64,000 nt of DNA from Burkholderiales bacterium (GTDB lineage: Bacteria; Pseudomonadota; Gammaproteobacteria; Burkholderiales; SG8-39): the NCBI GenBank assembly GCA_035762345.1, contig DASTPE010000048.1:41948-105947 (forward strand). The letters run 5' to 3'. Below are positions 8,629-18,854 of this stretch, piece after piece. The notes below the pieces were generated by a model that saw only the letters and a list, made by a program, of their open reading frames with translations, was not told the origin of the DNA and made no database searches. A program made the position numbers and the translations under genes. Each line of letters starts with the position of its first letter. Within the stretch, counting starts at the first letter, position 1.

Positions 8629-9089
8629 GCCGGCTGCCGGATCGCAGCGACCTTCCCGGTTGCGTCGACCACGTCCACAGAAACCGGGATGCCCTGGCGA
8701 ATGCTTTGGGTAACGATGCAAAAGTCTTCGAATTGCCCGAGGCAGCGCTCCTGGTAGGGCATATCGCCGAATTTCTCGGAGAGCGACAGAACGACGTCGA
8801 TGCCCGCAATGCGCAAGCGCCCGCGCTTGTTCTTCTCGAGCCGTGCCGTCGCCATGGCGCGCACCGGCCCCACGTTCTGCTTGAACTTGCCGCGCAGGCA
8901 GAAGGCGAGGCTCGCCGACAGACAATTGGCCACTGCGGCCGCGACCAGGCGGGCGGCGTTCGGACCGTGCCCGCCGCCGAGCGGCGGCGGCTCGTCGAGG
9001 AGAAGCTCACTGTTCGCCGGCTGGTCGAAGCGCACGAGGAATTCGTAGCCTTCGCGCTGCTCGAGCTCGATGCCGATGATCGCGTTCAT
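8625..9089 (-). CDS. OsmC/Ohr-family protein
   Basis: I chose the start at the internal ATG 9089 (MNAIIGIELEQREGYEF...), which follows AAGGTGG. The body reads GGGHGPNAARLVAAAVANCLSASLAFCLRGK...CIVTQSIRQGIPV, consistent with the OsmC fold. The ORF-track start at 9221 would add an Arg-rich, non-protein-like extension. Confidence 0.75.
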   Translation of the reverse strand: MNAIIGIELEQREGYEFLVRFDQPANSELLLDEPPPLGGGHGPNAARLVAAAVANCLSASLAFCLRGKFKQNVGPVRAMATARLEKNKRGRLRIAGIDVVLSLSEKFGDMPYQERCLGQFEDFCIVTQSIRQGIPVSVDVVDATGKVAAIRQPA

Positions 9090-9337
9090 GCAGCCACCTT
9101 GTCGCCGTGAGACACCGGGCATGCCTCGGCCGAGGGTTCCGGCGCGACGCCGTCGGCGTTCGTACCGAGCTCTCCGCGCCAGGGTCGCCAGCGCTCCAGC
9201 AGCACGAGGATCACGATCCACGCGGCGGCGAACCCGAGCGCCGTGGGCGGCATCCTTAGGGGGACCAGGCTCTTTCTTTCAGGTAGCGCATGAGACTTCC
9301 CGGTTGAAGCCAAGGCGGCAGCGGCGCCCGCGACCGG

Positions 9338-9796
9338 TCAGCTGCGCGGCGCCCACGCCGGACCGCGTTGCAAGCGCTCTTTACGCTGTTCGGGAGTCAG
9401 CACGGCGTCGATCTCGCTGCGCATCGCTTCGTGCTGCTTGAACAGTCGCGCGCGCAACGCGCCGACTTTCTCCTGCTGCGCGGCGACGGCGCTCGCACCG
9501 GGATTGCCCGACGCGTGCATCTCGCGCAGCTTGTACTGCTCGCTGCGCAGCTCGCCCATGACAGTCCAGTTCTTCGCCCGGTGCTCTTCGAGCAGCGCGG
9601 CGATCTTCGAGCGCTGCTCGTCAGTGAGGCTGGCGGCGAGGGCGCCATATCCCATGCCCGGTCCATAGCCCATGCCTGGTCCGTAGCCGCCGCCCGGGCC
9701 GAATCCGCCCCGCATGCCGGGGCCGAACCCCGGTCCATATCCGTAACCTTGCGCCATCGCGCTGGCGGCCGCGAAGGCAAGGGCCGCAACTATCAT
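9338..9796 (-). CDS. CpxP/Spy-family periplasmic protein with Gly-rich repeat
   Basis: I chose the start at MIVAALAFAAASAMA, a signal peptide. A GYGYGPGFGPGMRGGFGPGGGYGPGMGYGPGMGYG low-complexity stretch follows. Two LTxxQ-type motifs are present (LTDEQRSKI, LTPEQRKERL), typical of Spy/CpxP/ZraP. Confidence 0.75.
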   Translation of the reverse strand: MIVAALAFAAASAMAQGYGYGPGFGPGMRGGFGPGGGYGPGMGYGPGMGYGALAASLTDEQRSKIAALLEEHRAKNWTVMGELRSEQYKLREMHASGNPGASAVAAQQEKVGALRARLFKQHEAMRSEIDAVLTPEQRKERLQRGPAWAPRS

Positions 9797-9889
9797 CTTC
9801 AGTGCTGGGGATCTCACGGTGCGCTCCTGGTGTCGGGGGAACACCGCCATCGTGCCGCACCGGTGGGCCACGCGGCTTGATCTATCTCA

Positions 9890-9910
9890 ATATACTTTAA
9901 GATAGTATAT
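9890..9910. promoter_or_regulatory. AT-rich perfect 7-7-7 inverted repeat in the cpxP-like/arsR divergent intergenic region (candidate ArsR operator)
   Basis: atatact (9890-9896) / ttaagat / agtatat (9904-9910). A second overlapping pair, ctatct (9882-9887) and agatag (9900-9905), is also present. Confidence 0.4.
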
Positions 9911-9924
9911 AACTTTGCATAATG

Positions 9925-9953
9925 TTAACGAGTCTTGGCCCCGCTTCTATAAT
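9925..9953 (+). promoter_or_regulatory. Sigma70-like promoter of the arsR-family gene
   Basis: The -35 is ttaacg (9925-9930). A 17-nt spacer follows. The -10 is a perfect tataat (9948-9953). The ATG at 9960 lies 7 nt after the -10, so the transcript may be leaderless. Confidence 0.45.
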
Positions 9954-9959
9954 GCACCG

Positions 9960-10286
9960 ATGCGCGTCAAGACCCTGAATCCTTCAGCGATGCACCGCGC
10001 CGCAGACAGCGCATGCGGCCTGATGAAGACGCTCGCCCATCCGGACCGACTGATGCTCCTCTGCCAGCTCGCGCACACCGGCGAGATGACCGTCGGCGAG
10101 CTGGAGGAGAGGCTCGATATCCACCAGCCGACGCTGTCGCAACAGCTCACGGTGCTACGGGACGAGAAGCTCGTCGACACGCGCCGTGAGGGGAAGTACA
10201 TCTACTATCGCGTGCGCCCGGGGGCAGCGCTCGCGCTTCTCGAGGCGGTGTACCGCGAGTTCTGCGGACCGGGAAAGAACCGCTAG
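9960..10286 (+). CDS. ArsR/SmtB-family metalloregulator-type transcriptional repressor
   Basis: The winged-HTH signature reads LKTLAHPDRLMLLCQLAHTGEMTVGELEERLDIHQPTLSQQLTVLRDEKLVDTRREGKYIYYRV. I chose the ATG at 9960 rather than the track's TTG at 9915, which lies upstream of the predicted promoter. Confidence 0.85.
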   Translation: MRVKTLNPSAMHRAADSACGLMKTLAHPDRLMLLCQLAHTGEMTVGELEERLDIHQPTLSQQLTVLRDEKLVDTRREGKYIYYRVRPGAALALLEAVYREFCGPGKNR

Positions 10287-10322
10287 GGCTTCTGAGGAAC
10301 CGGCGGAACTAGCTGCCTGGCG

Positions 10323-10937
10323 TTATGGGCCAGGCATCATCCTGGTCGGCTTTTCCAGCAGGGCAAAGTCGGAGTCTTTGCAGCTCACATTCGGGTTGGT
10401 CGGCGCGAACATGCCGAGCGGGTTGTCCTTGAACAGCCATGCATGCAGGTCGTAATGCACAAAGCCCTGAGGAATGAGCGGTTCGTGTCCTTCCATCGGG
10501 CCCTGGAAGGGATGGCCGAACAGAGACGGCCGCTCCTTCGTATCTGGCGTTAGAGGCACGAGCCACTCAACCGCCACCAGTTTCAATTCTTTGCCCACCG
10601 GCTCGTAGATCAGCACATTAGGCTTCATCGGGTCCGGCGCGCCCCGCACCGTGAGATTGACAAAGTGCACGCCCATTGCGCCTTTGGCGTATTCCATATG
10701 CCCAGTCATCTTCTCGCCGGAGTAATGCACGCAGCCCACAGTCGATAGATAAAGGTCGCGCACGGCTACCTTGTAGTCCTGATATTTCTCCATCGACTTG
10801 CGCAACGCATCGATTTGAACCTTGTAAGGCCCTTCGACAACGGTGCCTTTCTTGCCCGCTTGCGCGGCGGCTTCGTGGAAAGAAAACGCGCCTGACAGAA
10901 ACAGGATGGATGCCGCGCCCAAGACGATGTGCTTCAT
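10323..10937 (-). CDS. Secreted hypothetical protein (no family recognised)
   Basis: 204 aa with a clear signal peptide (MKHIVLGAASILFLSGAFSFHEAAAQA). The start is preceded by GGGAGGAGAA. Composition is protein-like. I recognise no motif. Confidence 0.6.
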   Translation of the reverse strand: MKHIVLGAASILFLSGAFSFHEAAAQAGKKGTVVEGPYKVQIDALRKSMEKYQDYKVAVRDLYLSTVGCVHYSGEKMTGHMEYAKGAMGVHFVNLTVRGAPDPMKPNVLIYEPVGKELKLVAVEWLVPLTPDTKERPSLFGHPFQGPMEGHEPLIPQGFVHYDLHAWLFKDNPLGMFAPTNPNVSCKDSDFALLEKPTRMMPGP

Positions 10938-11085
10938 GGTTCTCCTCCCTTGGCCGTAATTTACCGGCCACTAAGTTAGCGCATTTTCATCGCGTCCGGC
11001 AGCAATGTATAGCGATGGCGGGTTAATGCCGCCCCTCGGGAGGAGAACGCTCGGCTACGCTAGGACGCCCCGGCTTAGCGTCATC

Positions 11086-11505
11086 TCAACCGTCAAGGCC
11101 GCGACTGGGATACGACGCCACCAACTGCAATAACACCTTCGGATCGCACGGCTTGATAAGGTAGTAGTCGAAGCCGCTTAACTCGGCGACCATTCTGTCC
11201 CGGATCTTGGTGTACTGCCCGCTGAGAGCGATCAGCAGGGGGCGCTTGCCGCTTTTGTGTCCGCGAACGTCTCGGGCCGCATCCCATCCGGTCTTGCCGG
11301 GCATTGCTATGTCCATAATGACGACATCGGGATTGAAGTCCTGAACGTCCGCGACGATGGTGCTCGCGTTGTAAATTCCCTTGGCGTTGTACCCGTCGAT
11401 CTGAAGCAAGGCGAGCAGGGAATCGACCATATCTCGATTGTCATCCACAACCAGCACACGAGTTCGGTGCATATCCGCAGGAATGTTATCTGCGCACCGC
11501 ATCAT
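11086..11505 (-). CDS. Stand-alone CheY-like receiver protein
   Basis: The sequence reads RVLVVDDNRDMVDSLLALL...DVVIMDIAMPGKTGWD...PLLIALSGQ...YYLIKP. All receiver hallmarks (DD, phospho-Asp, T/S, K) are present and there is no output domain. Confidence 0.85.
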   Translation of the reverse strand: MMRCADNIPADMHRTRVLVVDDNRDMVDSLLALLQIDGYNAKGIYNASTIVADVQDFNPDVVIMDIAMPGKTGWDAARDVRGHKSGKRPLLIALSGQYTKIRDRMVAELSGFDYYLIKPCDPKVLLQLVASYPSRGLDG

Positions 11506-11687
11506 TGTTAAGAATCAGCTAGGCACCCCAGAGCCTATCTCCTCATGCGCCGACGCAGCTAAGAACGGCCGTCGCATGATGGCCATTGTAGGAAGGAAGC
11601 TACAACTGGCATCAGGATTCGGCGGCAGCGCAAGGCCGTCTTACTTATTTCCACGCTCATGAATACAGCGGTCAGTCAGAGACCGAA

Positions 11688-11849
11688 ATGTGTGCACCAG
11701 GGCTAGATAAGGACGGCGACAATAAGTTCTCCCAAAGCGAGCTCGCACTTGCGCCCGCGGCGGGTGACAAGTCCGACGCAGGCGCCACGAAGCTCGGCCC
11801 CGAAGAAGCAGTAAGCCAGTCTTGCCGCCTGCAAACTGCTGCTAGCTGA
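11688..11849 (+). pseudogene. EF-hand protein C-terminal fragment (paralogous to 13339..13620)
   Basis: The 53-codon ORF reads MCAPGLDKDGDNKFSQSELALAPAAGDKSDAGATKLGPEEAV... and contains one canonical EF loop (DKDGDNKFSQSE). It resembles the ...LDKNKDGKLSRDELTPAPAGAGAT tail of the intact EF-hand gene. It has no signal peptide and no RBS. Confidence 0.35.
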
Positions 11850-11855
11850 GCAACC

Positions 11856-12176
11856 CTAAGCAGCCTTCTTCGCCCAGGCCGAGCACCAGCCCTTCGCGCT
11901 TACCTCCCGGGCCGAGAAGATGTCGCATGGTCCCCAGGCATCGGCGGATTTCCCCTTGAAGAAGTTGCAGTTCGCGCAGGTCTGGCCGGGCTGGTAGTTC
12001 TTGAACTTCGCCTGGTCGACCTTCGCTACGTCCTCCTTGTAGCCGAGCCCCTGCGCCTGGGGCTCGCCTTCGCTCACGCGCTTCGGCGCCTGCGCAAGGC
12101 CGACGGCGGGAATCAGGGCGAGCGAACCCAGCAGCAATATGCGGCGACGGCCGTGACGGAATGGTTGAGCGGACAT
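11856..12176 (-). CDS. High-potential iron-sulfur protein (HiPIP) with Tat signal
   Basis: A twin-arginine leader reads RHGRRRILLLGSLALIPAVGLAQA. The four-Cys HiPIP pattern reads CANCNFF...GPCDIF...GWCSAW. The RBS is AAAGGAGA. Confidence 0.9.
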   Translation of the reverse strand: MSAQPFRHGRRRILLLGSLALIPAVGLAQAPKRVSEGEPQAQGLGYKEDVAKVDQAKFKNYQPGQTCANCNFFKGKSADAWGPCDIFSAREVSAKGWCSAWAKKAA

Positions 12177-12377
12177 CGCGGTCTCCTTTCGGGCGAGCCC
12201 CCGGCGAGCCTGCTTCGCAAGATTCGCTCCCGAACGGTGAAGCTGCAGTGCGGTCTCTTCGTCAGAGTCTCCGCAGCGCGAAGGTCTGCAAGGGCGGAGG
12301 TGTTCGTCCGCATCGATAGCTGCACCGCGTTCGACTACTTGCTAGCGCCGGTCACCTCGTACCTCAGGCGGCGATTC

Positions 12378-12583
12378 GCGAGCCGGTCTGATGCGCGCTA
12401 TTTCCGGTCCAATTCGCCATCTAGCGGCGCGCAGCTCGGAAGGACAGTTCCGAAAAACTGGCACAAGACTCGGGCTCGCCGCGACCAAGCGCCTTGTTGA
12501 GCTGCACTGTGGGCAAAATCCTCGTTGACAGTGCCGTCGGCCACGGTTCGACGTTTCGGGTGACATTGCCGGCGCGCAACTGA
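12378..12583 (+). pseudogene. Histidine-kinase HATPase_c tail remnant with frameshift
   Basis: One frame reads ...FRKTGTRLGLAATKRLVELHCGQNPR* (G2 box region). The next frame continues KILVDSAVGHGSTFRVTLPARN* (the canonical G-x-GS-x-F...LP end). The two halves join only across a 1-nt shift near 12510. No HisKA or sensor part lies upstream. Confidence 0.5.
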
Positions 12584-12613
12584 GACCGAGAGGACGGCTC
12601 GCGCGGCCCACGC

Positions 12614-13257
12614 CAGGCCGGCTATATCGAGGACACTCGATCCACATCGAGTGGCGCTATGCCGAGCGCCTTCCGGGTCTTGCCGCCGAGCTCATCGCGA
12701 CGAAGCCGAGGCTCATCGTCGCCGAAACCACCGTGGCGGTGAGGGCCGCGAAGCAGGCGACTTCCACCATCCCGATCGTGATGACGGCAGTGGCTGATGC
12801 AGTGGGCAGCGGCCTAGTCGCGAGCCTCCCCCGGTCGGGCGCGAATGTTACGGGCATGTCCTTCCTCGGCACCGAGATCGTCGGCAAGCAGCTCGATCTG
12901 CTTAAGCAGGCCATGCCGCCGATCAGCCGGGTCGCGGTCCTGCGGCATCTCGGCGCGCACGCGGAAGCGACCGCCAAGCGCATGCGGCAGGAAGCGGACG
13001 CCGCGGCTCGCGCGATGGAACTGAGCACGAAAGTCGTCGACGTCTCGGCGGCCGGCGACCTCAACGCCGCCTTCGATTCCATCGCGCGGGACAAGGCTGA
13101 CGCGTTGCTGGTCTGGGCAAGCCCGATGTTTCTGGCGGAGCGGAAAAAGCTTATCGCGCTGTCCATGCAGCATCGACTCCCGACTGTGTACCACCAGCGC
13201 GAGTTCCCTCAGGCCGGTGGACTGACGTCCTATGGCCCCAACCTGCCGGAAAAGGGC
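12614..13257 (+). pseudogene. ABC-transporter substrate-binding protein (ABC_sub_bind-type) remnant, 5'- and 3'-truncated, frameshifted
   Basis: The sequence reads QAGYIE / (shift) / SIHIEWRYAERLPGLAAELIATKPRLIVAETTVAVRAAKQATSTIPIVMTAV...GGLTSYGPNLPEKG. There is no signal peptide or first ~70 aa. The usual C-terminal ~60 aa are missing. A frame change occurs near 12630. Confidence 0.55.
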
Positions 13258-13286
13258 CTGATAGCGCAGGCTGCAGCTTTTGAGCG

Positions 13287-13316
13287 TGAAAAAGAAAAGC
13301 CCCGCGAAGGCGGGGC
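13287..13316 (-). terminator. Rho-independent terminator of the EF-hand gene
   Basis: On the minus strand the hairpin is gccccgc-cttc-gcggggc (13299-13316), followed by ttttctttttc. Confidence 0.65.
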
Positions 13317-13338
13317 TCATTGCAGGCAGCAAAAAATG

Positions 13339-13620
13339 CTACTGCTTCTTCGGCTGCGTGGCACCTGCGCCAGCGGGCGCAGGTGTGAGTTCGTCTCTGG
13401 AGAGCTTACCGTCCTTGTTCTTATCCAGCTTGTCGAAATCCTTCTCGTACGGTGTCCCCTTCGCCTCTTCGCGGGAAATGGACCCGTCCTTGTCCTTGTC
13501 CGCCATCCCGCTTCCCGGCGTCGTAGCGCCGGCGGCTGGTTTCTCGCTCTGAGCCTGGCTCAGGAGGGGTACCGCAAGGGCGGCTGCTATGGCTACTGCA
13601 ACTAGTGTCTTCAATCTCAT
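13339..13620 (-). CDS. Secreted EF-hand calcium-binding protein
   Basis: The signal peptide reads MRLKTLVAVAIAAALAVPLLSQAQ. Two EF loops are present (DKDKDGSISREE and DKNKDGKLSRDE). Confidence 0.8.
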   Translation of the reverse strand: MRLKTLVAVAIAAALAVPLLSQAQSEKPAAGATTPGSGMADKDKDGSISREEAKGTPYEKDFDKLDKNKDGKLSRDELTPAPAGAGATQPKKQ

Positions 13621-13910
13621 TGCTGGTCTCCGGTTGTCCCCTATCCAAAGGGTACGTACACGCAGTTCGGTTTCTCGTCCGATTGGTTATTTCCTGCGGG
13701 TGGAAATATAAGCAAGAAGCACAACGCTCCGATACCGCTAAATCCTGCTATCGGGTGTAGCTTTCTTTCTACAGTGCGCATCATCGTCGCGAAAGCCCGA
13801 CACTCGACTATGTGGCGTAGCGTTTTAGCGACGCCGGCGAAGCTTGACCCCGGTCATCGTCTTGAAGCGATACACGCGTAGGGTCTGTAGGGGCAAGAAT
13901 CTTTGTTCGC

Positions 13911-14102
13911 ATGGTCAGCGACAGTATCCATTGCGAAATTCTCAGACGCGCGGCCGAAGTTGCAGGGGATGAAGATACGCTTGCACAGCACCTCGACGTG
14001 AGATCGGAGGACGTGCACGAGTGGGTGCAAGGCAGAGCGACAGCGCGGGCCGGTGTCTACATAGTAGCGCTAGACATGCTCGCGCGCGGCCCGCAGCGCT
14101 GA
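13911..14102 (+). CDS. Hypothetical 63-aa protein, possibly Cro/YdaS-like HTH
   Basis: The stretch ILRRAAEVAGDEDTLAQHLDVRSEDVHEWVQG fits a helix-turn-helix pattern loosely. No RBS is visible. It lies in the low-GC patch. Confidence 0.25.
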   Translation: MVSDSIHCEILRRAAEVAGDEDTLAQHLDVRSEDVHEWVQGRATARAGVYIVALDMLARGPQR

Positions 14103-14185
14103 CGACTTCACCCGCAAGAAAAGCCCAAAGGAAACCCCGCAAGTAGAGCGCGATTGACTACGCGCGATCTTCGACTGCGCGTGCC

Positions 14186-14267
14186 ATAAAAGAAAAAGCC
14201 CCGGACGGGTCCAGTCTTGCGGGGCTTTGATCTCCGAGCGAGGGGATGCAGCCTCGGAGAATGGGGA
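14186..14267 (-). ncRNA. Candidate ~80-nt small RNA (promoter + two hairpins + intrinsic terminator, no ORF)
   Basis: On the minus strand, hairpin 1 is ctccgag/ctcggag (14259-14232). Hairpin 2 is aaagccccg...cggggcttt (14228-14195). A ttcttttat tract follows (14194-14186). The start is inferred from the promoter at 14274-14303. Confidence 0.3.
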
Positions 14268-14273
14268 AATCTA

Positions 14274-14303
14274 AATCTATCGACGCAGCCGTCGGGATGT
14301 AAA
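14274..14303 (-). promoter_or_regulatory. Sigma70-like promoter for the candidate sRNA
   Basis: On the minus strand the -35 is TTTACA (14303-14298). An 18-nt spacer follows. The -10 is TAGATT (14279-14274), with a second TAGATT immediately downstream. Confidence 0.3.
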
Positions 14304-14526
14304 GCGGGGTTTCTGTATGCAGCAGGCCTCTGCGCGTCATGTTGGCACCTCATACCGGAACTTCAGCGCTACACAGCCTCGCCCTGGCATGTGTCCTTCA
14401 AATTGCGCGCTCAGAGCCGAACGCGGCTCAAGCGGGGCTTCCTCGGCGTACACTGAAGCGAGTTACGTTCGCGAAGGGCGATATGCAACGGGAATTCTCG
14501 GCGCTTTTTTATGAAGTAAGAGGCCA

Positions 14527-14979
14527 ATGCGCCTGAACGACTGGCAGAAATTATGGGTTGCTGCAACCGCGGTCTGGGCATTGTGCGCGCCCATGTTCTA
14601 CTTAAAGGACCAATTCCCCACTAAGGACAAGATAGATCGGACGCAAGCGAGGATGCTCAGAAGCGATATCGCGCTGTACACAAGATACGGATTTGTTCGG
14701 ACTCCTTTGTGGAACGATTACGAGAGTATGAAGATGGTAGTCCGCAATCTGTCTGACGAGGAGGTAATGTCGCTCGCAAGAGGGTTAGCCTCAGGAATGC
14801 AAGAGCCCGGAAATCGTTTAGAGGTGACCTTAGCTGGGTGGGATCGTGAGCTTGGCGAGCTGCGCAAACAGCAGGCTATATGGCTCGGAGCCTATGTTCT
14901 AGTCGTTTTGGTACCGAGCGCACTGGTGTACGGCGCGGGCTTGGTGACGGCATGGGTCCGAAGGCGATTTCGAAAATAG
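14527..14979 (+). CDS. Hypothetical two-helix membrane protein
   Basis: 150 aa with an AAGAGG RBS 5 nt upstream of the ATG. Hydrophobic helices lie at the N-terminus (LWVAATAVWALCAPMFYL) and C-terminus (AIWLGAYVLVVLVPSALVYGAGLVTAWV). The DNA is lower-GC. No family recognised. Confidence 0.5.
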   Translation: MRLNDWQKLWVAATAVWALCAPMFYLKDQFPTKDKIDRTQARMLRSDIALYTRYGFVRTPLWNDYESMKMVVRNLSDEEVMSLARGLASGMQEPGNRLEVTLAGWDRELGELRKQQAIWLGAYVLVVLVPSALVYGAGLVTAWVRRRFRK

Positions 14980-15095
14980 GAATGGCTTGCACAAGCGCAG
15001 CCGAGTCGCTGAGTGCCGCCACACCTGGCGACTCTCAGTGTCCGACGATCCGCGACAACGCGAGTTCGCGCCGAAATGACGAAGGAGATCTTGAG

Positions 15096-15280
15096 CTAGA
15101 ACGGCCCCATGAGATGCCGCAGAACGTCCCTTCGCGATTGGTCCGGCAGCCTGAACGGCTTGGCGTAGCTGCTCCCCAGATACGCCAAACTTCTCGGCCC
15201 AATAGCGCACCTCATGGTCCCGGTCTACATTGATTCGCTCGTCGTCGTGCGTGCCTGTCTTCTTCAGATCTATCGGTCAT
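15096..15280 (-). pseudogene. DUF3606-family small protein disrupted by two frameshifts
   Basis: ATG at 15280 follows GGAG. The three frames read MTDRS / KKTGTHDDERINVDRDHEVRYWAEKFGVSGEQLRQAVQAAGPIAK / DVLRHLMGPF*. Codon first positions are congruent to 1, then 0, then 2 (mod 3). The span is 185 nt, which is 3n+2. The joined sequence matches the DUF3606 pattern (RINV...YW..KFGVS..EL..AV..vG). Confidence 0.6.
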
Positions 15281-15638
15281 AAGGATCTCCTTTCGGGGGG
15301 GGGTGCGCAGTATTTCGGACGGTGTCTCGTCCGAGCGGCGAGGCGGCTTCCGGGTGCCAGTGCGCAATTCTCGGGGGACGTTAGCTCTACGCTTCTTGGC
15401 CGATACGTCGAGTCCATCCCGCAGACGCCACTGTGACCGAATTATGCGGTGGTTCAGGAGTGGCACTGCGAGGAGGCGTGACGTGCATGCTCTTAGCGGT
15501 TAGCAGTCTGCGAGCAACAGGGCTGCGATGGCGTTCGCTTCAGCCTTCAAACGCTGTTGGAACTTGCAAGTAGACAGTCCGGCCCGCGCCAGAGTAGAGA
15601 ACTACTAGATCGGGTCCACGCCCACTACGAGTAGTGGG

Positions 15639-15711
15639 GTCGTGCCATGAGACTAAACAAAGGCTGACACAGGTGAAGGGAAGGGCTTGGTAATGTGCCT
15701 TTTTGATTCTC
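15639..15711 (+). repeat. Conserved leader, copy 1 of a 314-bp tandem duplication
   Basis: gtcgtgccatgaga...ctgaca...ggcttggtaatgtgc...ttctc. The 14-mer and 15-mer blocks are identical to copy 2 at 15953. Confidence 0.8.
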
Positions 15712-15729
15712 CGTTATTTTGGTTAGGCG

Positions 15730-15939
15730 ATGGTGCGCGACGGGATTCTCGTCGTTTTGCTGCTCGTTGTTGTATGGGCCAACTACGAGGCCGATGTAAT
15801 CCGCCCGTTCGTTCAGCAGCACGCCAAGGCGGCGACCTGCATAGTCAGAAACTTTGAGATCGGAAACCTGAGGCCGGTGCGATCTGCTGTCGAGCAAAAC
15901 GTGCCCTCCCCGACGAACCCAGGGGAGTGCCACGGTTAG
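15730..15939 (+). CDS. Small hydrophobic protein, paralog 1 (69 aa)
   Basis: The sequence is MVRDGILVVLLLVVVWANYEADVIRPFVQQHAKAATCIVRNFEIGNLRPV... It shares the A-x-A-x-x-C-x-x-R-N-[FY]-x-x-G-N-L block with the ORF at 16027. The RBS is weak. Confidence 0.4.
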   Translation: MVRDGILVVLLLVVVWANYEADVIRPFVQQHAKAATCIVRNFEIGNLRPVRSAVEQNVPSPTNPGECHG

Positions 15940-15952
15940 GCAGAGCCGTGTT

Positions 15953-16026
15953 GTCGTGCCATGAGAGCCAACAAACACTGACAGCAGTACTATGAGATGG
16001 CTTGGTAATGTGCGTTCTTAGTTCTC
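15953..16026 (+). repeat. Conserved leader, copy 2 of the tandem duplication
   Basis: gtcgtgccatgaga...ctgaca...ggcttggtaatgtgc...ttctc, immediately followed by the ATG at 16027. Confidence 0.8.
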
Positions 16027-16176
16027 ATGCGTGAGTTGGTCATCGGGTTGCTGGTCATTGGCGTGGTCGTCGCGCTGCTCGTTGTTCTTGGCGCGGACCT
16101 CGCCGAGGCGATGAGCTGCATGATCCGGAACTACTCCGACGGGAACCTCCCGCGCACGGTGCAGCTCTGCTTTTGA
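16027..16176 (+). CDS. Small hydrophobic protein, paralog 2 (49 aa; below the ORF-track cutoff)
   Basis: My translation is MRELVIGLLVIGVVVALLVVLGADLAEAMSCMIRNYSDGNLPRTVQLCF*. It has one predicted helix plus the shared C-x-x-R-N-[FY]-x-x-G-N-L block. Confidence 0.4.
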   Translation: MRELVIGLLVIGVVVALLVVLGADLAEAMSCMIRNYSDGNLPRTVQLCF

Positions 16177-16278
16177 CACCTTAAGGAGTGCCGCCAGGTT
16201 TAGGCCGTCAGGCCGTACAAATGAAAAGGGCCCTGGGCAGCCGGATCGAGGTGAAGCGACCGAGGCCCCACGGGGCAG

Positions 16279-16308
16279 AAAAAACTTCAGGCTCAGATTT
16301 CAGCCTAA
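16279..16308 (-). terminator. Probable intrinsic terminator of the solA-like gene
   Basis: On the minus strand the hairpin is aggct-gaaatctg-agcct, overlapping the TGA stop. The tract gaagtttttt follows. The stem is short. Confidence 0.4.
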
Positions 16309-17436
16309 GCGTGCCATCCGGAACATCGAGAGATCGAAGGCCGGCCTCTTGCCCTGAACGAGCTCGGCGATGATCTCGCCCATCACGGAGGCGAACTTGA
16401 AGCCGTGACCCGAGCACACGCTCGCGAGAATTACCTCGTCATGGCGCGGATGCCGGTCGACGAGGAAATGGAAATCCGGCGTGTTGGTATAGAGGCACAC
16501 GTCGCTCGCCTTGAGCGCGCCGTTCGCCAGCGGGAGGCGCCGGTCCATGAAGCCGCGGATGTCCGCAATGTCCGCGTCCGTCGCCTGGCGCGACAAGTCG
16601 TCCGGCTCGCCGATGGCCCCGCCGTGGTGACGCGCGATCTTGCAGCCGGTGCCGAGATCGGGAAACCCATAATAGAACGCACCGCCCGGCTCTTCGAGAC
16701 AGAAGATCGGAAAGCGGCCCGATCCAAGGGCCGCTGGCTCGCTCGCCGGCGCGAAATGCGCGACGACCTGGCGCTCGACGCGCAGATGTGAACGAAGTTC
16801 AGCGACGAGCTCGCCCATGCTGGCGCCGGCCGTGAGCACGAGCGCGCCGCTGCTGTAGCGGTCTCGCGGCGTGCGCACGCGCACGCCTTCCGGTCCGCAG
16901 GTCCACTCCTGCGCCGGCTCGCCATAGCGCAGGTCGGCCTTCGCCGCGCGCGCGCCCTCGAGTAACGCCCGAACGCACGCCTCCGGATAGAGAATGCCGG
17001 CATCGTCCTCCCAGACCGCAATCATCGACGGATCGACGCGGAACTGCGGGTAGCGCGCGGCAAGCGCATCGCTCGAAAGCACCTCGTGCGGCAGGTGATG
17101 GGCGCGTGCGCTCGCCAGCACGCCCGGCACGAGCTCGCCCGTGGGGGCGCCCATCATGAGGCCGCCCGTCCGGCGAAAAAGCGTCGCGTGCGCACGCTCT
17201 TCGAGCTCGCGCCATGCCGCGAACGCTCGCTCGAGCAAAGGCACGTAGGCAGGATGCTCGTAGTACGCCTTGCGGATGATGCGCGACTCGCCATGATGCG
17301 AACCGTGGCGGTGCGGAGGCTGATGGCGGTCCACGCCGAGCACGTGCAGCCCGCGAGCGGCGAGCGCGTACGCAGCCGCGCTGCCCATCGCGCCGAGGCC
17401 AACAACGATCACATCGTAATTGGGCGCCACCCCCAT
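16300..17436 (-). CDS. solA: FAD-dependent sarcosine / N-methyl-L-tryptophan oxidase family (MSOX/MTOX)
   Basis: The dinucleotide fold reads YDVIVVGLGAMGSAAAYALAARG. The C-terminal CSGHGFKF motif is the covalent-FAD Cys region typical of MSOX/MTOX. Confidence 0.75.
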   Translation of the reverse strand: MGVAPNYDVIVVGLGAMGSAAAYALAARGLHVLGVDRHQPPHRHGSHHGESRIIRKAYYEHPAYVPLLERAFAAWRELEERAHATLFRRTGGLMMGAPTGELVPGVLASARAHHLPHEVLSSDALAARYPQFRVDPSMIAVWEDDAGILYPEACVRALLEGARAAKADLRYGEPAQEWTCGPEGVRVRTPRDRYSSGALVLTAGASMGELVAELRSHLRVERQVVAHFAPASEPAALGSGRFPIFCLEEPGGAFYYGFPDLGTGCKIARHHGGAIGEPDDLSRQATDADIADIRGFMDRRLPLANGALKASDVCLYTNTPDFHFLVDRHPRHDEVILASVCSGHGFKFASVMGEIIAELVQGKRPAFDLSMFRMARLG

Positions 17437-17492
17437 GTGTCAGGATTCGGACAAACACGCATAGCCACGTTCTTGATGTACAGAGAAGGTAT

Positions 17493-17860
17493 TGGTGGAG
17501 GCGGCGGGAATCGAACCCGCGTCCGTAAGCCCTACACAGTCAGGACTACATGCTTAGCCTGGTTGTTTGAGCTTCGCCTTGCGCCCGCCAACCGGCAGGC
17601 TGACGCGCGGCTAGCCGCTTCGACGGATCCCGCTGGCCAAGCGGCCAGACCGGCGGGAGAGGCTGATGTAAATGACGCTGCACCCCTTGCGGGGCCTAGA
17701 CCATCAGCAATCTAGTGCAGCGTCCCGCGGGTGTTAGGCCGCGAGAGCGAAACGCTCGTCGTTGGCGTTTGTAGTGTTTCCAGACTGGATTAGCGAGGTC
17801 ATCTGGTCCTCGGCATGCCCTGCGCTGCTTCGTTGCCCACGTCGAAACCAGGTCGCCCCC
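17493..17860 (-). ncRNA. ssrA: tmRNA (SsrA), tag peptide ANDERFALAA
   Basis: The 5' GGGGGCG pairs with the 3' CGCCUCC-ACCA, including the G3:U70 pair. The T-arm reads GGGTTCGATTCCCGC. The tag ORF gcc aac gac gag cgt ttc gct ctc gcg gcc taa lies at 17766-17734. A possible promoter is TTGAAT (17907-17902) / 18 nt / TATGAG (17883-17878). Confidence 0.95.
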
Positions 17861-17903
17861 GGAATCGTTGCGATTGTCTCATATGGGGTTGTTCGAGCCC
17901 CAT

Positions 17904-18854
17904 TCAAGACCATCCTTTTAGAACCAGTTTGCCGATCATGGTTCCCGATTCGAGCCGCTCGTGGGCTTTGCGCAGGTTGGCACCGTTGATCGACGAAAGC
18001 GTTTCCTTCAGCGTGCAGCGCAGCTTGCCGCTATCGAGCCACTCGGCGACCTGGTTGAGCAGCCGGTGCTGCTCGATCATGTCGGTCGTTTTGAAGCGCG
18101 GCCGCGTAAACATGAGCTCCCAGCAGACACTTGCGCTTTTCATTCGCACCCCGTCCATCGGCAGGGGTTTCGTGTTGCCGACAATCGCGACCAGCGCGCC
18201 TTGCGGGGCAACCAGCTTGGCCATGGCCTCCCAGTATGCGTCAAGCTCGCCGCTGAAGTTGGCGATGTAATCGACCGGGTTCTTGATCTGGTCGATGAGG
18301 CTTTTGCGGTGGTTCACGACCTCGTCGGCCCCGAGCGTTTTCACCCAAGCCACGGACTCCGGGCGTGAAGCGGTCGCGATTACATGCAGGCCGGCCTGCT
18401 TCGCGAGTTGTATGCCGATCGAGCCCACGCCGCCCGCCCCGCTAATGATGAGGATGCGCTTTCCCGCCTGCACTTTCATGCGGTCGAAGAACGCCTCCCA
18501 CGCCGTGATGGACGTGAGCGGCATCGCGGCTGCCTGCGCGAAGTCGAGCGTCCTTGGCTTGCGTCCGACGATGCGCTCGTCGACGAGATGAAATTCGCTG
18601 TTGCAGCCTGGGCGAGTGACGTCACCGGCGTAGTACACGGTGTCGCCAGGTTTGAACAAGGTGACTTCTTTTCCTATCGCTTCTACGGTGCCGGCCGCGT
18701 CCCAGCCGAGTATGCGGGACGCGGTCGCTTGCTTGCGCTGCTTGTAATCGACGGGGTTTACCGAGACCGCTTCGACTCTGACGAGCAGGTCGCGGCCGGA
18801 CGCCGAGGGCTTGGGAAGCTCGATGTCGGCGAAGGTGTGGTCGACGGCTCTCAC
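17904..18854 (-). CDS. Zinc-type alcohol dehydrogenase-like / quinone oxidoreductase (MDR superfamily)
   Basis: 316 aa with a GroES-like N-terminus and the Rossmann motif ILIISGAGGVGSIGIQLAKQAG. Confidence 0.8.
   Translation of the reverse strand: MRAVDHTFADIELPKPSASGRDLLVRVEAVSVNPVDYKQRKQATASRILGWDAAGTVEAIGKEVTLFKPGDTVYYAGDVTRPGCNSEFHLVDERIVGRKPRTLDFAQAAAMPLTSITAWEAFFDRMKVQAGKRILIISGAGGVGSIGIQLAKQAGLHVIATASRPESVAWVKTLGADEVVNHRKSLIDQIKNPVDYIANFSGELDAYWEAMAKLVAPQGALVAIVGNTKPLPMDGVRMKSASVCWELMFTRPRFKTTDMIEQHRLLNQVAEWLDSGKLRCTLKETLSSINGANLRKAHERLESGTMIGKLVLKGWS

What the first reader, a model, noticed from the sequence alone, without database searches (positions are those of the whole stretch)
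14186..14303. Orphan promoter + double hairpin + strong intrinsic terminator with no ORF: candidate ~80-nt sRNA
All elements lie on the minus strand. The promoter is TTTACA (14303-14298), an 18-nt spacer, then TAGATT (14279-14274). A 7-bp hairpin follows: ctccgag/ctcggag (14259-14232). Next is a GC-rich hairpin, aaagccccg...cggggcttt (14228-14195). A U-rich tract, ttcttttat, closes the unit. No protein-coding gene ends upstream of this terminator. The only ORFs spanning it (14108-14353 and 14158-14340) run straight through both hairpins and start upstream of the promoter. This promoter, stem-loop, terminator stem-loop and U-tail layout is the classic shape of a trans-acting, Hfq-type sRNA.
Basis: seen in the sequence. 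Interest (0 to 1): 0.55.

Follow-up and report, generated by a model that had tools for sequence, protein, structure and literature searches.

The report
Conserved hairpin-terminator RNA beside Cro-like gene
The two hairpins and U-tail are a real, evolutionarily conserved non-coding element that always sits tail-to-tail with a small Cro-type regulator gene, and it is most likely a short antisense-style RNA, but its promoter is seen only in this genome and nothing shows it is a free-standing Hfq-type sRNA.

Summary
The hairpin + terminator + U-tract (14186-14269, minus) is not an orphan. It is a single-copy module found in at least 8 sequence variants from metagenomes, always just downstream of and convergent with a 63-aa Cro/YdaS-like HTH gene (13911-14102, plus). 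All variants fold the same way. In total, 90.8% of pair cells are canonical, three pairs show compensatory double changes, and the minus-strand T-tract is kept in every variant. In divergent pairs the module is better conserved than third codon positions of the HTH gene, and non-3n indels and frame changes rule out coding. No Rfam family matches. Homology between lineages ends just upstream of hairpin 1, so the promoter lies in window-specific DNA and relatives score at background there. Even so, a 9/12 match in that exact slot is rare (top 0.1%; 9 such sites in 64 kb). Best reading (about 0.5): a roughly 80-nt convergent RNA ending at a partly bidirectional terminator, working like lambda OOP or GadY on the HTH mRNA 3' end. 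Main rival (about 0.3): only a terminator/insulator plus an mRNA 3' hairpin. Trans-acting or Hfq-dependent action is untested. New member of a known kind, of modest interest.

The parts
14298..14303 (-). Putative -35 hexamer TTTACA (5/6). It lies in window-specific DNA.
   Evidence: It is not conserved in relatives.
14274..14279 (-). Putative -10 hexamer TAGATT (4/6), 18-nt spacer. A tandem second TAGATT lies at 14273-14268. The predicted start is near 14267.
   Evidence: A TAnnnT is present at the equivalent place in L025, L027 and L030 only.
14261..14269 (-). Conserved unpaired 5' motif UUUCCCCAU (C-rich, anti-Shine-Dalgarno-like). It marks the 5' edge of inter-lineage conservation.
   Evidence: Alignments.
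14231..14260 (-). Hairpin 1: 8-bp stem UCUCCGAG/CUCGGAGA with a 14-nt C-rich loop. Relatives have 10-11 bp and a 6-7 nt UCCCCCA loop.
   Evidence: Compensatory changes are CG to UA (L015) and GC to AU (L029).
14186..14228 (-). Intrinsic terminator: stem AAAGCCCCG/CGGGGCUUU (14228-14195) with a conserved loop AAGACUGGACCC, then the T-tract TTTTTCTTTTAT (14197-14186).
   Evidence: The T-tract has 7-10 T of 12 on the minus strand in all 8 variants, against 4-6 of 12 on the plus strand.
14103..14185 (.). Spacer between the HTH stop codon and the terminator. It is shared with L006 and L009 and deleted in L015, L025, L027, L029 and L030.
13911..14102 (+). The partner gene: a 63-aa Cro/YdaS-like helix-turn-helix protein, convergent with the module.
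   Evidence: Pfam PF15943, E = 2e-5, below the curated cut-off. About 30 homologs at 60-86% identity. Alignment A2.
13817..13910 (+). Conserved upstream region of the HTH gene, presumably its promoter and leader. This is the left edge of the shared block.
   Evidence: blastn and MAFFT.
14280..14421 (.). Window-specific segment with no counterpart in any related locus. It carries the putative -35 hexamer and spacer; the -10 hexamer lies just outside it, at 14274-14279. It is a mosaic junction between the HTH module and the 150-aa-gene module.
14422..14979 (+). Next gene module: a conserved 105-nt leader plus a 150-aa ORF with hydrophobic segments at both ends. It has only 2 homologs and is found elsewhere without the RNA module.
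13339..13620 (-). Secreted EF-hand protein gene, divergent from the HTH gene. This neighbourhood is conserved in L006-8, L017-21 and L029.

Best explanation
The hairpin, the terminator hairpin and the U-tract form a conserved, single-copy, non-coding module that belongs to a small Cro/YdaS-type HTH regulator gene and lies tail-to-tail with it. I take it to be the body of a short minus-strand RNA. In this genome the RNA would be about 80 nt: it would start near 14267 from the TTTACA-18-TAGATT promoter and end at the strong intrinsic terminator near 14188. The same GC-rich stem carries an A-tract on one side and a short T-run on the other, so it probably also stops or pauses plus-strand transcription leaving the HTH gene (partly bidirectional). 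Any HTH transcript that reads into or through the stem is perfectly complementary to the small RNA. The most likely action is therefore cis-antisense control of the HTH mRNA 3' end, or of read-through into the next plus-strand gene, as with lambda OOP on cII or GadY on gadX. The C-rich unpaired motifs (UUUCCCC and the hairpin-1 loop) leave room for extra trans targets. Shown: the structure, its conservation and covariation, its linkage and orientation relative to the HTH gene, its non-coding nature, and the rarity of the promoter match. Inferred: that it is transcribed as a discrete RNA, where it starts, and the antisense mechanism.
For: There is one copy per locus, always on the strand opposite the HTH gene and just downstream of it. 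This holds in 17 loci representing 8 sequence variants, at 70-103 bits, and there is no second copy in the 64-kb window. The structure is kept: 90.8% of cells are paired against 24-58% when the partners are slid, the covariation score exceeds 500 of 500 shuffles, and 3 pairs have double changes. Each variant folds alone into the same two hairpins. The minus-strand T-tract is retained in all variants, even where the spacer to the HTH gene has been deleted. It has 7-10 T of 12, against 4-6 of 12 on the plus strand. In divergent pairs the module is 77-81% identical while HTH third codon positions are 58-67%. Non-3n indels and two different reading frames across lineages exclude a coding role. In most contexts the next gene is co-directional with the HTH gene, so no convergent protein gene needs this minus-strand terminator. 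The conserved block ends 2-13 nt from the predicted start site, and a 9/12 promoter in that slot is a top-0.1% event. In 5 of 8 lineages the HTH ORF tail overlaps the module by 47-94 nt, so a minus-strand RNA would be a true antisense RNA there.
Against: There is no transcript evidence. The promoter sits in window-specific DNA, and relatives score 4-7 of 12 in the same slot, equal to background. Indels immediately upstream (L027 versus L030) would break any fixed -35 hexamer. G.U versus A.C asymmetry is balanced between strands at 167 versus 166 cells, and the L006 clade folds better on the plus strand. In the window the module does not overlap the HTH ORF: there is an 82-nt gap. Some HTH loci lack the module (L014, L023) or keep only a degraded terminator that serves a convergent 104-aa gene (L009-13). 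The window's own hairpin 1 has lost its three inner pairs.
Confidence: 0.5

Rival explanations
1. It is only a terminator/insulator cassette and there is no discrete sRNA. The GC-rich stem is a bidirectional intrinsic terminator that closes the HTH transcription unit and blocks antisense read-in from whatever lies downstream. Hairpin 1 is a 3'-end stabiliser or secondary pause hairpin of the plus-strand HTH mRNA. The promoter match is coincidental.
For: The module starts right after the HTH functional domain and keeps a fixed orientation relative to it, as a 3' UTR would. The promoter is not conserved. Pairing is equally good on the plus strand, and better there in the L006 clade. In L009-13 the remnant terminator lies about 40 nt after a convergent 104-aa gene. 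In L006 and L016 minus-strand genes end about 250 nt upstream. Compensatory evolution is also known for plain intrinsic terminators (PMC5381666, title and abstract only).
Against: The plus-strand T-run is weak in every variant (4-6 of 12) and hairpin 1 has no T-tract on the plus strand. Conservation of hairpin 1, of its C-rich loop and of the UUUCCCC motif is not needed for a terminator. In L025, L027 and L029, plus-strand termination at the stem would leave the HTH ORF without a stop codon. The promoter in the exact slot is a roughly 0.1% event.
Confidence: 0.3
2. It is a classic trans-acting, Hfq-dependent sRNA. Its neighbourhood with the HTH gene is incidental or reflects co-regulation, and it acts on distant mRNAs through its C-rich seed.
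For: The layout is a promoter, a 5' stem-loop and a terminator with a long U-tail. There are conserved unpaired C-rich motifs that could mask Shine-Dalgarno sequences.
Against: There is strict physical linkage to one gene, and overlap with it in most lineages. No conserved target emerged: the HTH-leader pairing z-scores were -1.4 to +2.4, and the window-wide ribosome-binding-site scan was indistinguishable from GC-rich background. The promoter is not conserved. Hfq binding cannot be tested here.
Confidence: 0.12
3. It is a DNA-level element: paired palindromes that serve as a protein-binding or recombination site at the edge of a small islet that inserts near tRNA or tmRNA genes.
For: Symmetric changes in the two arms would also preserve a DNA palindrome. 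HTH loci sit next to tRNA genes or fragments (L014, L015-22) and 3.2 kb from ssrA here. Mosaic junctions flank the module.
Against: The GC stem with a conserved T-tract is the signature of an intrinsic terminator. G.U-type departures occur where a palindrome would simply be broken. No integrase, att repeat or viral relative was found. The neighbourhood EF-hand/HTH/module is stable across lineages.
Confidence: 0.06

Closest known systems
Phage lambda OOP RNA (the pO-oop-tO unit) acting on cII
   Same: OOP is a short RNA made from its own promoter, convergent with a small regulatory gene, and it ends at an intrinsic terminator hairpin at that gene's 3' end. It acts as an antisense RNA on that gene's mRNA: 52 nt of oop overlap the 3' end of cII and cleavage is RNase III-dependent (PMC5869508). 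Its length of 77 nt is from my own knowledge. In 5 of 8 lineages the module here overlaps the HTH ORF tail by 47-94 nt.
   Different: There is no sequence or Rfam relationship. There is no phage context: 0 viral contig hits and no PHROG match. In this window the module stops 82 nt short of the HTH ORF. The promoter is not conserved among relatives.
GadY sRNA of E. coli (cis-encoded, opposite strand, between gadX and gadW) - from my own knowledge
   Same: GadY is a small RNA encoded on the opposite strand in the spacer between two co-directional genes. It is complementary to the 3' UTR of the upstream regulator's mRNA, has a terminator plus U-tail and binds Hfq. The layout here is similar: HTH(+), module(-), next gene(+).
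   Different: GadY is an Rfam family and did not match. Its partner is an AraC-type regulator. No processing or stabilisation data exist here.
Bidirectional intrinsic terminators between convergent transcription units
   Same: A GC-rich stem is flanked by an A-tract and a T-tract and sits between a gene and a convergent unit. Terminator stems are known to evolve by compensatory substitutions (PMC5381666, title and abstract only).
   Different: The plus-strand T-run is weak (4-6 of 12). A second conserved hairpin and a conserved C-rich leader accompany the stem, which a plain terminator does not need.

Membership tests
Any curated Rfam family (release 15) | A covariance-model match at or near the family's gathering score | tested here: not met
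   The window scan at gathering thresholds found only the tmRNA and 2 tRNAs. A permissive scan of 13600-14700 gave only E = 5.7 and E = 9.8 noise. Nothing covers the module in 9 related loci.
Rho-independent (intrinsic) terminator | A GC-rich stem-loop immediately followed by a U-tract on the transcribed strand | tested here: met
   A 9-bp GC-rich stem is followed by TTTTTCTTTTAT on the minus strand. The stem and the T-tract are kept in all 8 variants.
Rho-independent (intrinsic) terminator | Actual termination of a transcript at that site | not testable with these tools
   This needs Term-seq, 3' RACE or an in-vitro termination assay.
Bidirectional terminator | A functional U-tract on both strands | tested here: inconclusive
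   The plus-strand tail is UUUGAUCUCC, with 4-6 T of 12 in all variants. That is weak but not absent.
Independent sRNA gene | Its own promoter directly upstream, conserved with the RNA | tested here: inconclusive
   The window has a 9/12 site in the right slot, in the top 0.1% of background. The seven relatives score 4-7, equal to background, and searches found no site.
Independent sRNA gene | A conserved secondary structure with covariation and no coding potential | tested here: met
   for structure. Non-3n indels and frame switches are shown.
Independent sRNA gene | A discrete transcript of the predicted size | not testable with these tools
   No expression data are available.
Hfq-dependent trans-acting sRNA | Hfq binding, and a conserved seed that pairs with distant mRNAs | tested here: inconclusive
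   A U-tail and C-rich unpaired motifs are present. The target scans were uninformative. Hfq binding is not testable.
OOP-like cis-antisense RNA | Convergent with a small regulator gene and ending at a terminator inside or at that gene's 3' end, with sequence overlap | tested here: inconclusive
   Convergence and linkage hold in all loci. Overlap with the ORF is 0 nt in the window, L006 and L024, and 47-94 nt in L015, L025, L027, L029 and L030. Overlap with the mRNA 3' UTR is unknown.
OOP-like cis-antisense RNA | A lambdoid phage or prophage context | tested here: not met
   There were no phage or plasmid blastn hits, no viral contig carrying the module or the HTH family, no PHROG match, and no integrase or att repeat.

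The most novel reading that the evidence does not exclude
The module defines a previously undescribed family of chromosomal cis-antisense RNAs paired with a Cro-type regulator in an uncultured proteobacterial lineage. In this reading, a single stem serves as the terminator of the small RNA and also as a conditional stop inside or just after the regulator's ORF tail. Convergent transcription or RNA-RNA pairing would then decide whether a complete regulator mRNA is made, or read-through into the next gene occurs. In lineages where the ORF runs through the stem, the alternative product would be a truncated mRNA without a stop codon.
Probability: 0.25. Interest if true: 0.5.

Novelty: new member of a known kind. 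Interest (0 to 1): 0.35.

Why it matters
If it is transcribed, this would be a new small-RNA family, absent from Rfam. It has a clear genetic partner, a Cro-type HTH regulator that is divergent from a secreted EF-hand protein gene, in organisms known so far only from metagenomes. It would give a compact, testable example of convergent-transcription or antisense control outside phages. It also shows that a promoter plus terminator with no ORF can be sorted into a real element (the structured module) and a lineage-specific part (the promoter) by comparative analysis alone. If it is only a terminator, the finding is routine.

Tried and rejected
1. Island at ssrA. A tmRNA gene lies 3.2 kb away, but the adjacent 378-aa ORF is a DAO-family oxidase, not an integrase. 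No repeat of the tmRNA 3' end exists in 9000-18000.
2. Phage or plasmid origin. There were no blastn hits, no viral contigs and no PHROG or PADLOC match.
3. Synteny through the DAO gene. The single genome-contig scan found only 44-46% relatives, so no closely related genome was available. Exact-protein look-ups of window proteins also failed.
4. Association with the downstream 150-aa gene. Its three other occurrences share DNA only from about 14422 rightwards and lack the module.
5. Strand assignment from G.U versus A.C asymmetry. This was a tie, 167 versus 166.
6. Pairing of the RNA with its own HTH leader. It was no better than shuffled controls or non-cognate pairs.
7. Target scan of start regions in the window. 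It gave GC-rich noise, and the GGGG in the EF-hand leader is not conserved.
8. Dispersed repeat, REP or MITE. There is only one copy per locus and per window.
9. A peptide encoded by the 81-aa or 60-aa ORFs. There is no family match, and the indels are not multiples of three.
10. An ECF-type or other conserved promoter motif upstream. I inspected this by eye: a loose cGTC..TAaGT pattern but no consistent -35, so it is not claimed.
11. Organism identity from the tmRNA tag ANDERFALAA. There were no literature hits. The one-piece tmRNA argues against Alphaproteobacteria (own knowledge), and the taxon otherwise remains unknown.

Full report
**Observation**

On the minus strand the window reads as follows:
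- TTTACA (14303-14298), an 18-nt spacer, then TAGATT (14279-14274). The TAGATT is tandemly repeated at 14273-14268.
- UUUCCCCAU (14269-14261).
- An 8-bp hairpin UCUCCGAG/CUCGGAGA (14260-14231).
- The linker UC.
- A GC-rich stem AAAGCCCCG/CGGGGCUUU (14228-14195).
- TTTTTCTTTTAT, ending at 14186.

RNAfold gives exactly this two-hairpin fold: -29.2 kcal/mol, z = -2.3. The full terminator pattern is unique in the window, with 0 expected by chance.

**Local context**

The element lies in a 425-nt gap between two plus-strand ORFs.
- Upstream is a 63-aa ORF (13911-14102) with a weak Cro/YdaS-type HTH match: PF15943, E = 2e-5, below the curated cut-off.
- Downstream is a 150-aa ORF with hydrophobic segments at both ends (14527-14979).
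- The minus-strand ORFs that cross the hairpins have no family match.
- A secreted EF-hand protein gene (13339-13620, minus) is divergent from the HTH gene.
- A one-piece tmRNA gene lies at 17493-17860. The ORF next to it is a DAO-type oxidase, not an integrase. No att-like repeat exists.
- No Rfam family matches either strand.

**Relatives**

The source genome and close relatives are absent from the collections:
- Exact-protein look-ups failed.
- The one genome scan, with the DAO protein, returned only 44-46% relatives.
- There are no phage or plasmid blastn hits.

The 150-aa protein has only two homologs. Their contigs share DNA with the window only from about 14422 rightwards, so the candidate RNA does not travel with that gene.

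The 63-aa HTH protein has about 30 metagenomic homologs at 60-86% identity. I fetched 25 loci that carry it. blastn and MAFFT show that window 13817-14261 is homologous to these loci. That stretch covers the HTH leader, the HTH gene, the spacer, the T-tract, the terminator stem and hairpin 1. Homology ends at the outer edge of hairpin 1 plus about 10 nt.

A covariance model built from the 8 distinct variants finds exactly one copy per locus:
- It is always on the strand opposite the HTH gene and just downstream of it, at 70-103 bits.
- There is no further copy in the 64-kb window.
- Two HTH loci lack it (L014, L023). One group (L009-13) keeps only a degraded terminator.

**Is it a functional structure?**

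- The consensus fold has 21-22 pairs, and 90.8% of pair cells are canonical against 24-58% when the partners are slid by 1-3 columns.
- The covariation score exceeds all 500 shuffles.
- Three pairs carry compensatory double changes: CG to UA in L015, GC to AU in L029, and AU/GC in the inner terminator stem.
- Every variant folds alone into the same two hairpins.
- In divergent pairs the module is 77-81% identical, whereas third codon positions of the adjacent HTH gene are 58-67%. It is therefore under purifying selection.
- Indels are not multiples of three. The HTH ORF tail enters the module in two different frames in five lineages and stops before it in three. The sequence is therefore not constrained as coding.

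**Which strand?**

Counting G.U against A.C departures gives 167 canonical cells on the minus strand and 166 on the plus strand. The L006 clade folds better on the plus strand, and L027, L029 and L030 fold better on the minus strand. Pairing cannot decide the strand.

The T-tract can. It has 7-10 T of 12 after the stem on the minus strand in all eight variants, and it is retained even where the spacer to the HTH gene has been deleted. The plus strand has 4-6 of 12.

In the window and in most other contexts the next gene is co-directional with the HTH gene. No convergent protein gene therefore needs a minus-strand terminator. A minus-strand non-coding transcript ending here is the simplest reading. 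The stem may also act as a weak plus-strand terminator.

**The promoter**

- The hexamers lie just beyond where inter-lineage homology ends, in or next to DNA that no relative shares. That DNA is a mosaic junction between the HTH module and the 150-aa-gene module, which begins at about 14422.
- The relatives have no sigma-70-like site upstream of hairpin 1. They score 4-7 of 12 in the equivalent slot, which equals background.
- A TAnnnT at the right place is seen only in L025, L027 and L030.

On the other hand, sites scoring at least 9 of 12 are rare in this GC-rich window:
- There are 9 on both strands in 64 kb, which gives 0.001-0.004 expected in a 20-60 nt slot.
- A score of 9 in the slot is in the top 0.1% of background.
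- The predicted start (about 14267) falls within a few bases of the conserved block's 5' edge.

I therefore consider a real, lineage-specific promoter somewhat more likely than coincidence. Relatives may use unrecognised promoters, read-in transcription or processing.

**Mechanism**

The module is tied to a Cro-type regulator, is convergent with it, and overlaps its ORF tail by 47-94 nt in five of eight lineages. The closest working model is lambda OOP. That RNA is made leftward from pO, ends at the tO hairpin, overlaps the 3' end of cII by 52 nt and acts through RNase III-dependent cleavage (PMC5869508). GadY, which lies between gadX and gadW, is a second analogue (own knowledge).

In this window the overlap would be only with an HTH 3' UTR or a read-through transcript, because the ORF stops 82 nt before the module.

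The conserved unpaired C-rich motifs (UUUCCCC and the UCCCCCA loop) look like anti-Shine-Dalgarno seeds. I found no convincing target:
- Pairing with the cognate HTH leader is no better than controls.
- A window-wide scan gave only GC-rich noise.

**Rivals**

- A pure terminator/insulator with an mRNA 3' hairpin and no discrete sRNA: about 0.3.
- A classic trans-acting Hfq sRNA: about 0.12.
- A DNA-level palindromic site at the edge of a small islet near tRNA or tmRNA genes: about 0.06.

Viral or prophage origin has no support.

**Verdict**

There is a genuine, conserved, structured non-coding element, probably a short convergent RNA with a strong terminator. However, it is not an orphan, its promoter is not conserved, and trans-acting or Hfq-dependent function is untested. 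It is a new member of a known kind: a cis-encoded small RNA and terminator module that is not in Rfam. Interest is modest.

Noticed in passing
window 15629-16086: There is a tandem duplication of about 315 nt (repeat families D1, D3 and D10; 78-86% identity). Each copy has a conserved plus-strand leader (GGCTTGGTAATGTGC...) followed by a short, very hydrophobic ORF (15730-15939 and 16027-16176). These may be small membrane peptides or type-I-toxin-like genes.
   Followed up: no
window 14899-15466 (minus): A DUF3606 gene appears split or frameshifted. The domain match starts at residue 1 of ORF 14899-15210, at profile position 21, and the missing N-terminus seems to lie in ORF 15212-15466. The long tail of the first ORF overlaps the 3' end of the 150-aa plus-strand ORF by about 80 nt.
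   Followed up: partly
window 17493-17860 (minus): A one-piece tmRNA gene with the tag ANDERFALAA (197 bits). It abuts a DAO-family FAD oxidase gene (16300-17436) instead of an integrase. The stretch 10-16 kb has lower GC (57-62% against about 66%) and few convincing ORFs, which suggests decayed or foreign DNA.
   Followed up: partly
window 14422-14979; L001-L003: The 150-aa ORF, with hydrophobic segments at both ends, has only two homologs among 5.8 billion clusters (96% and 87% identity). It moves as a unit with about 105 nt of its own leader into unrelated contexts. A small hairpin (GAGCCGAACGCGGCTC) sits at the junction in the window.
   Followed up: partly
L014 about 2086-2180; L015-L022: In L014 the HTH stop codon is followed directly by a tRNA 3' fragment (GGTTCGAATCCGCC...CCA) and its own terminator, in place of the module. 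In L015-L022 the HTH/module islet lies in the pgsA-uvrC tRNA cluster: between tRNA-Leu and tRNA-Cys where both ends are visible (L017, L021). The cargo between the module and tRNA-Cys varies from contig to contig.
   Followed up: partly
L006 1090-1310; L015 550-730; L024 1864-2090: In the L006/L015/L024 clade about 230 nt beyond hairpin 1 are conserved regardless of the flanking genes, and the block ends sharply (...GTTTTGTGGATACCGC). If it is transcribed on the minus strand, it would make the RNA about 300 nt long in those lineages. No Rfam match and no sigma-70-like site were found.
   Followed up: partly
window 13297-13318 (minus): The EF-hand gene's terminator (GAGCCCCGCCTTCGCGGGGCTT + TTCTTTTT) shares the AAAAAGAAAAGCCCCG arm and tail with the module's terminator (repeat family D18). 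This is a similar terminator style within 900 nt.
   Followed up: no
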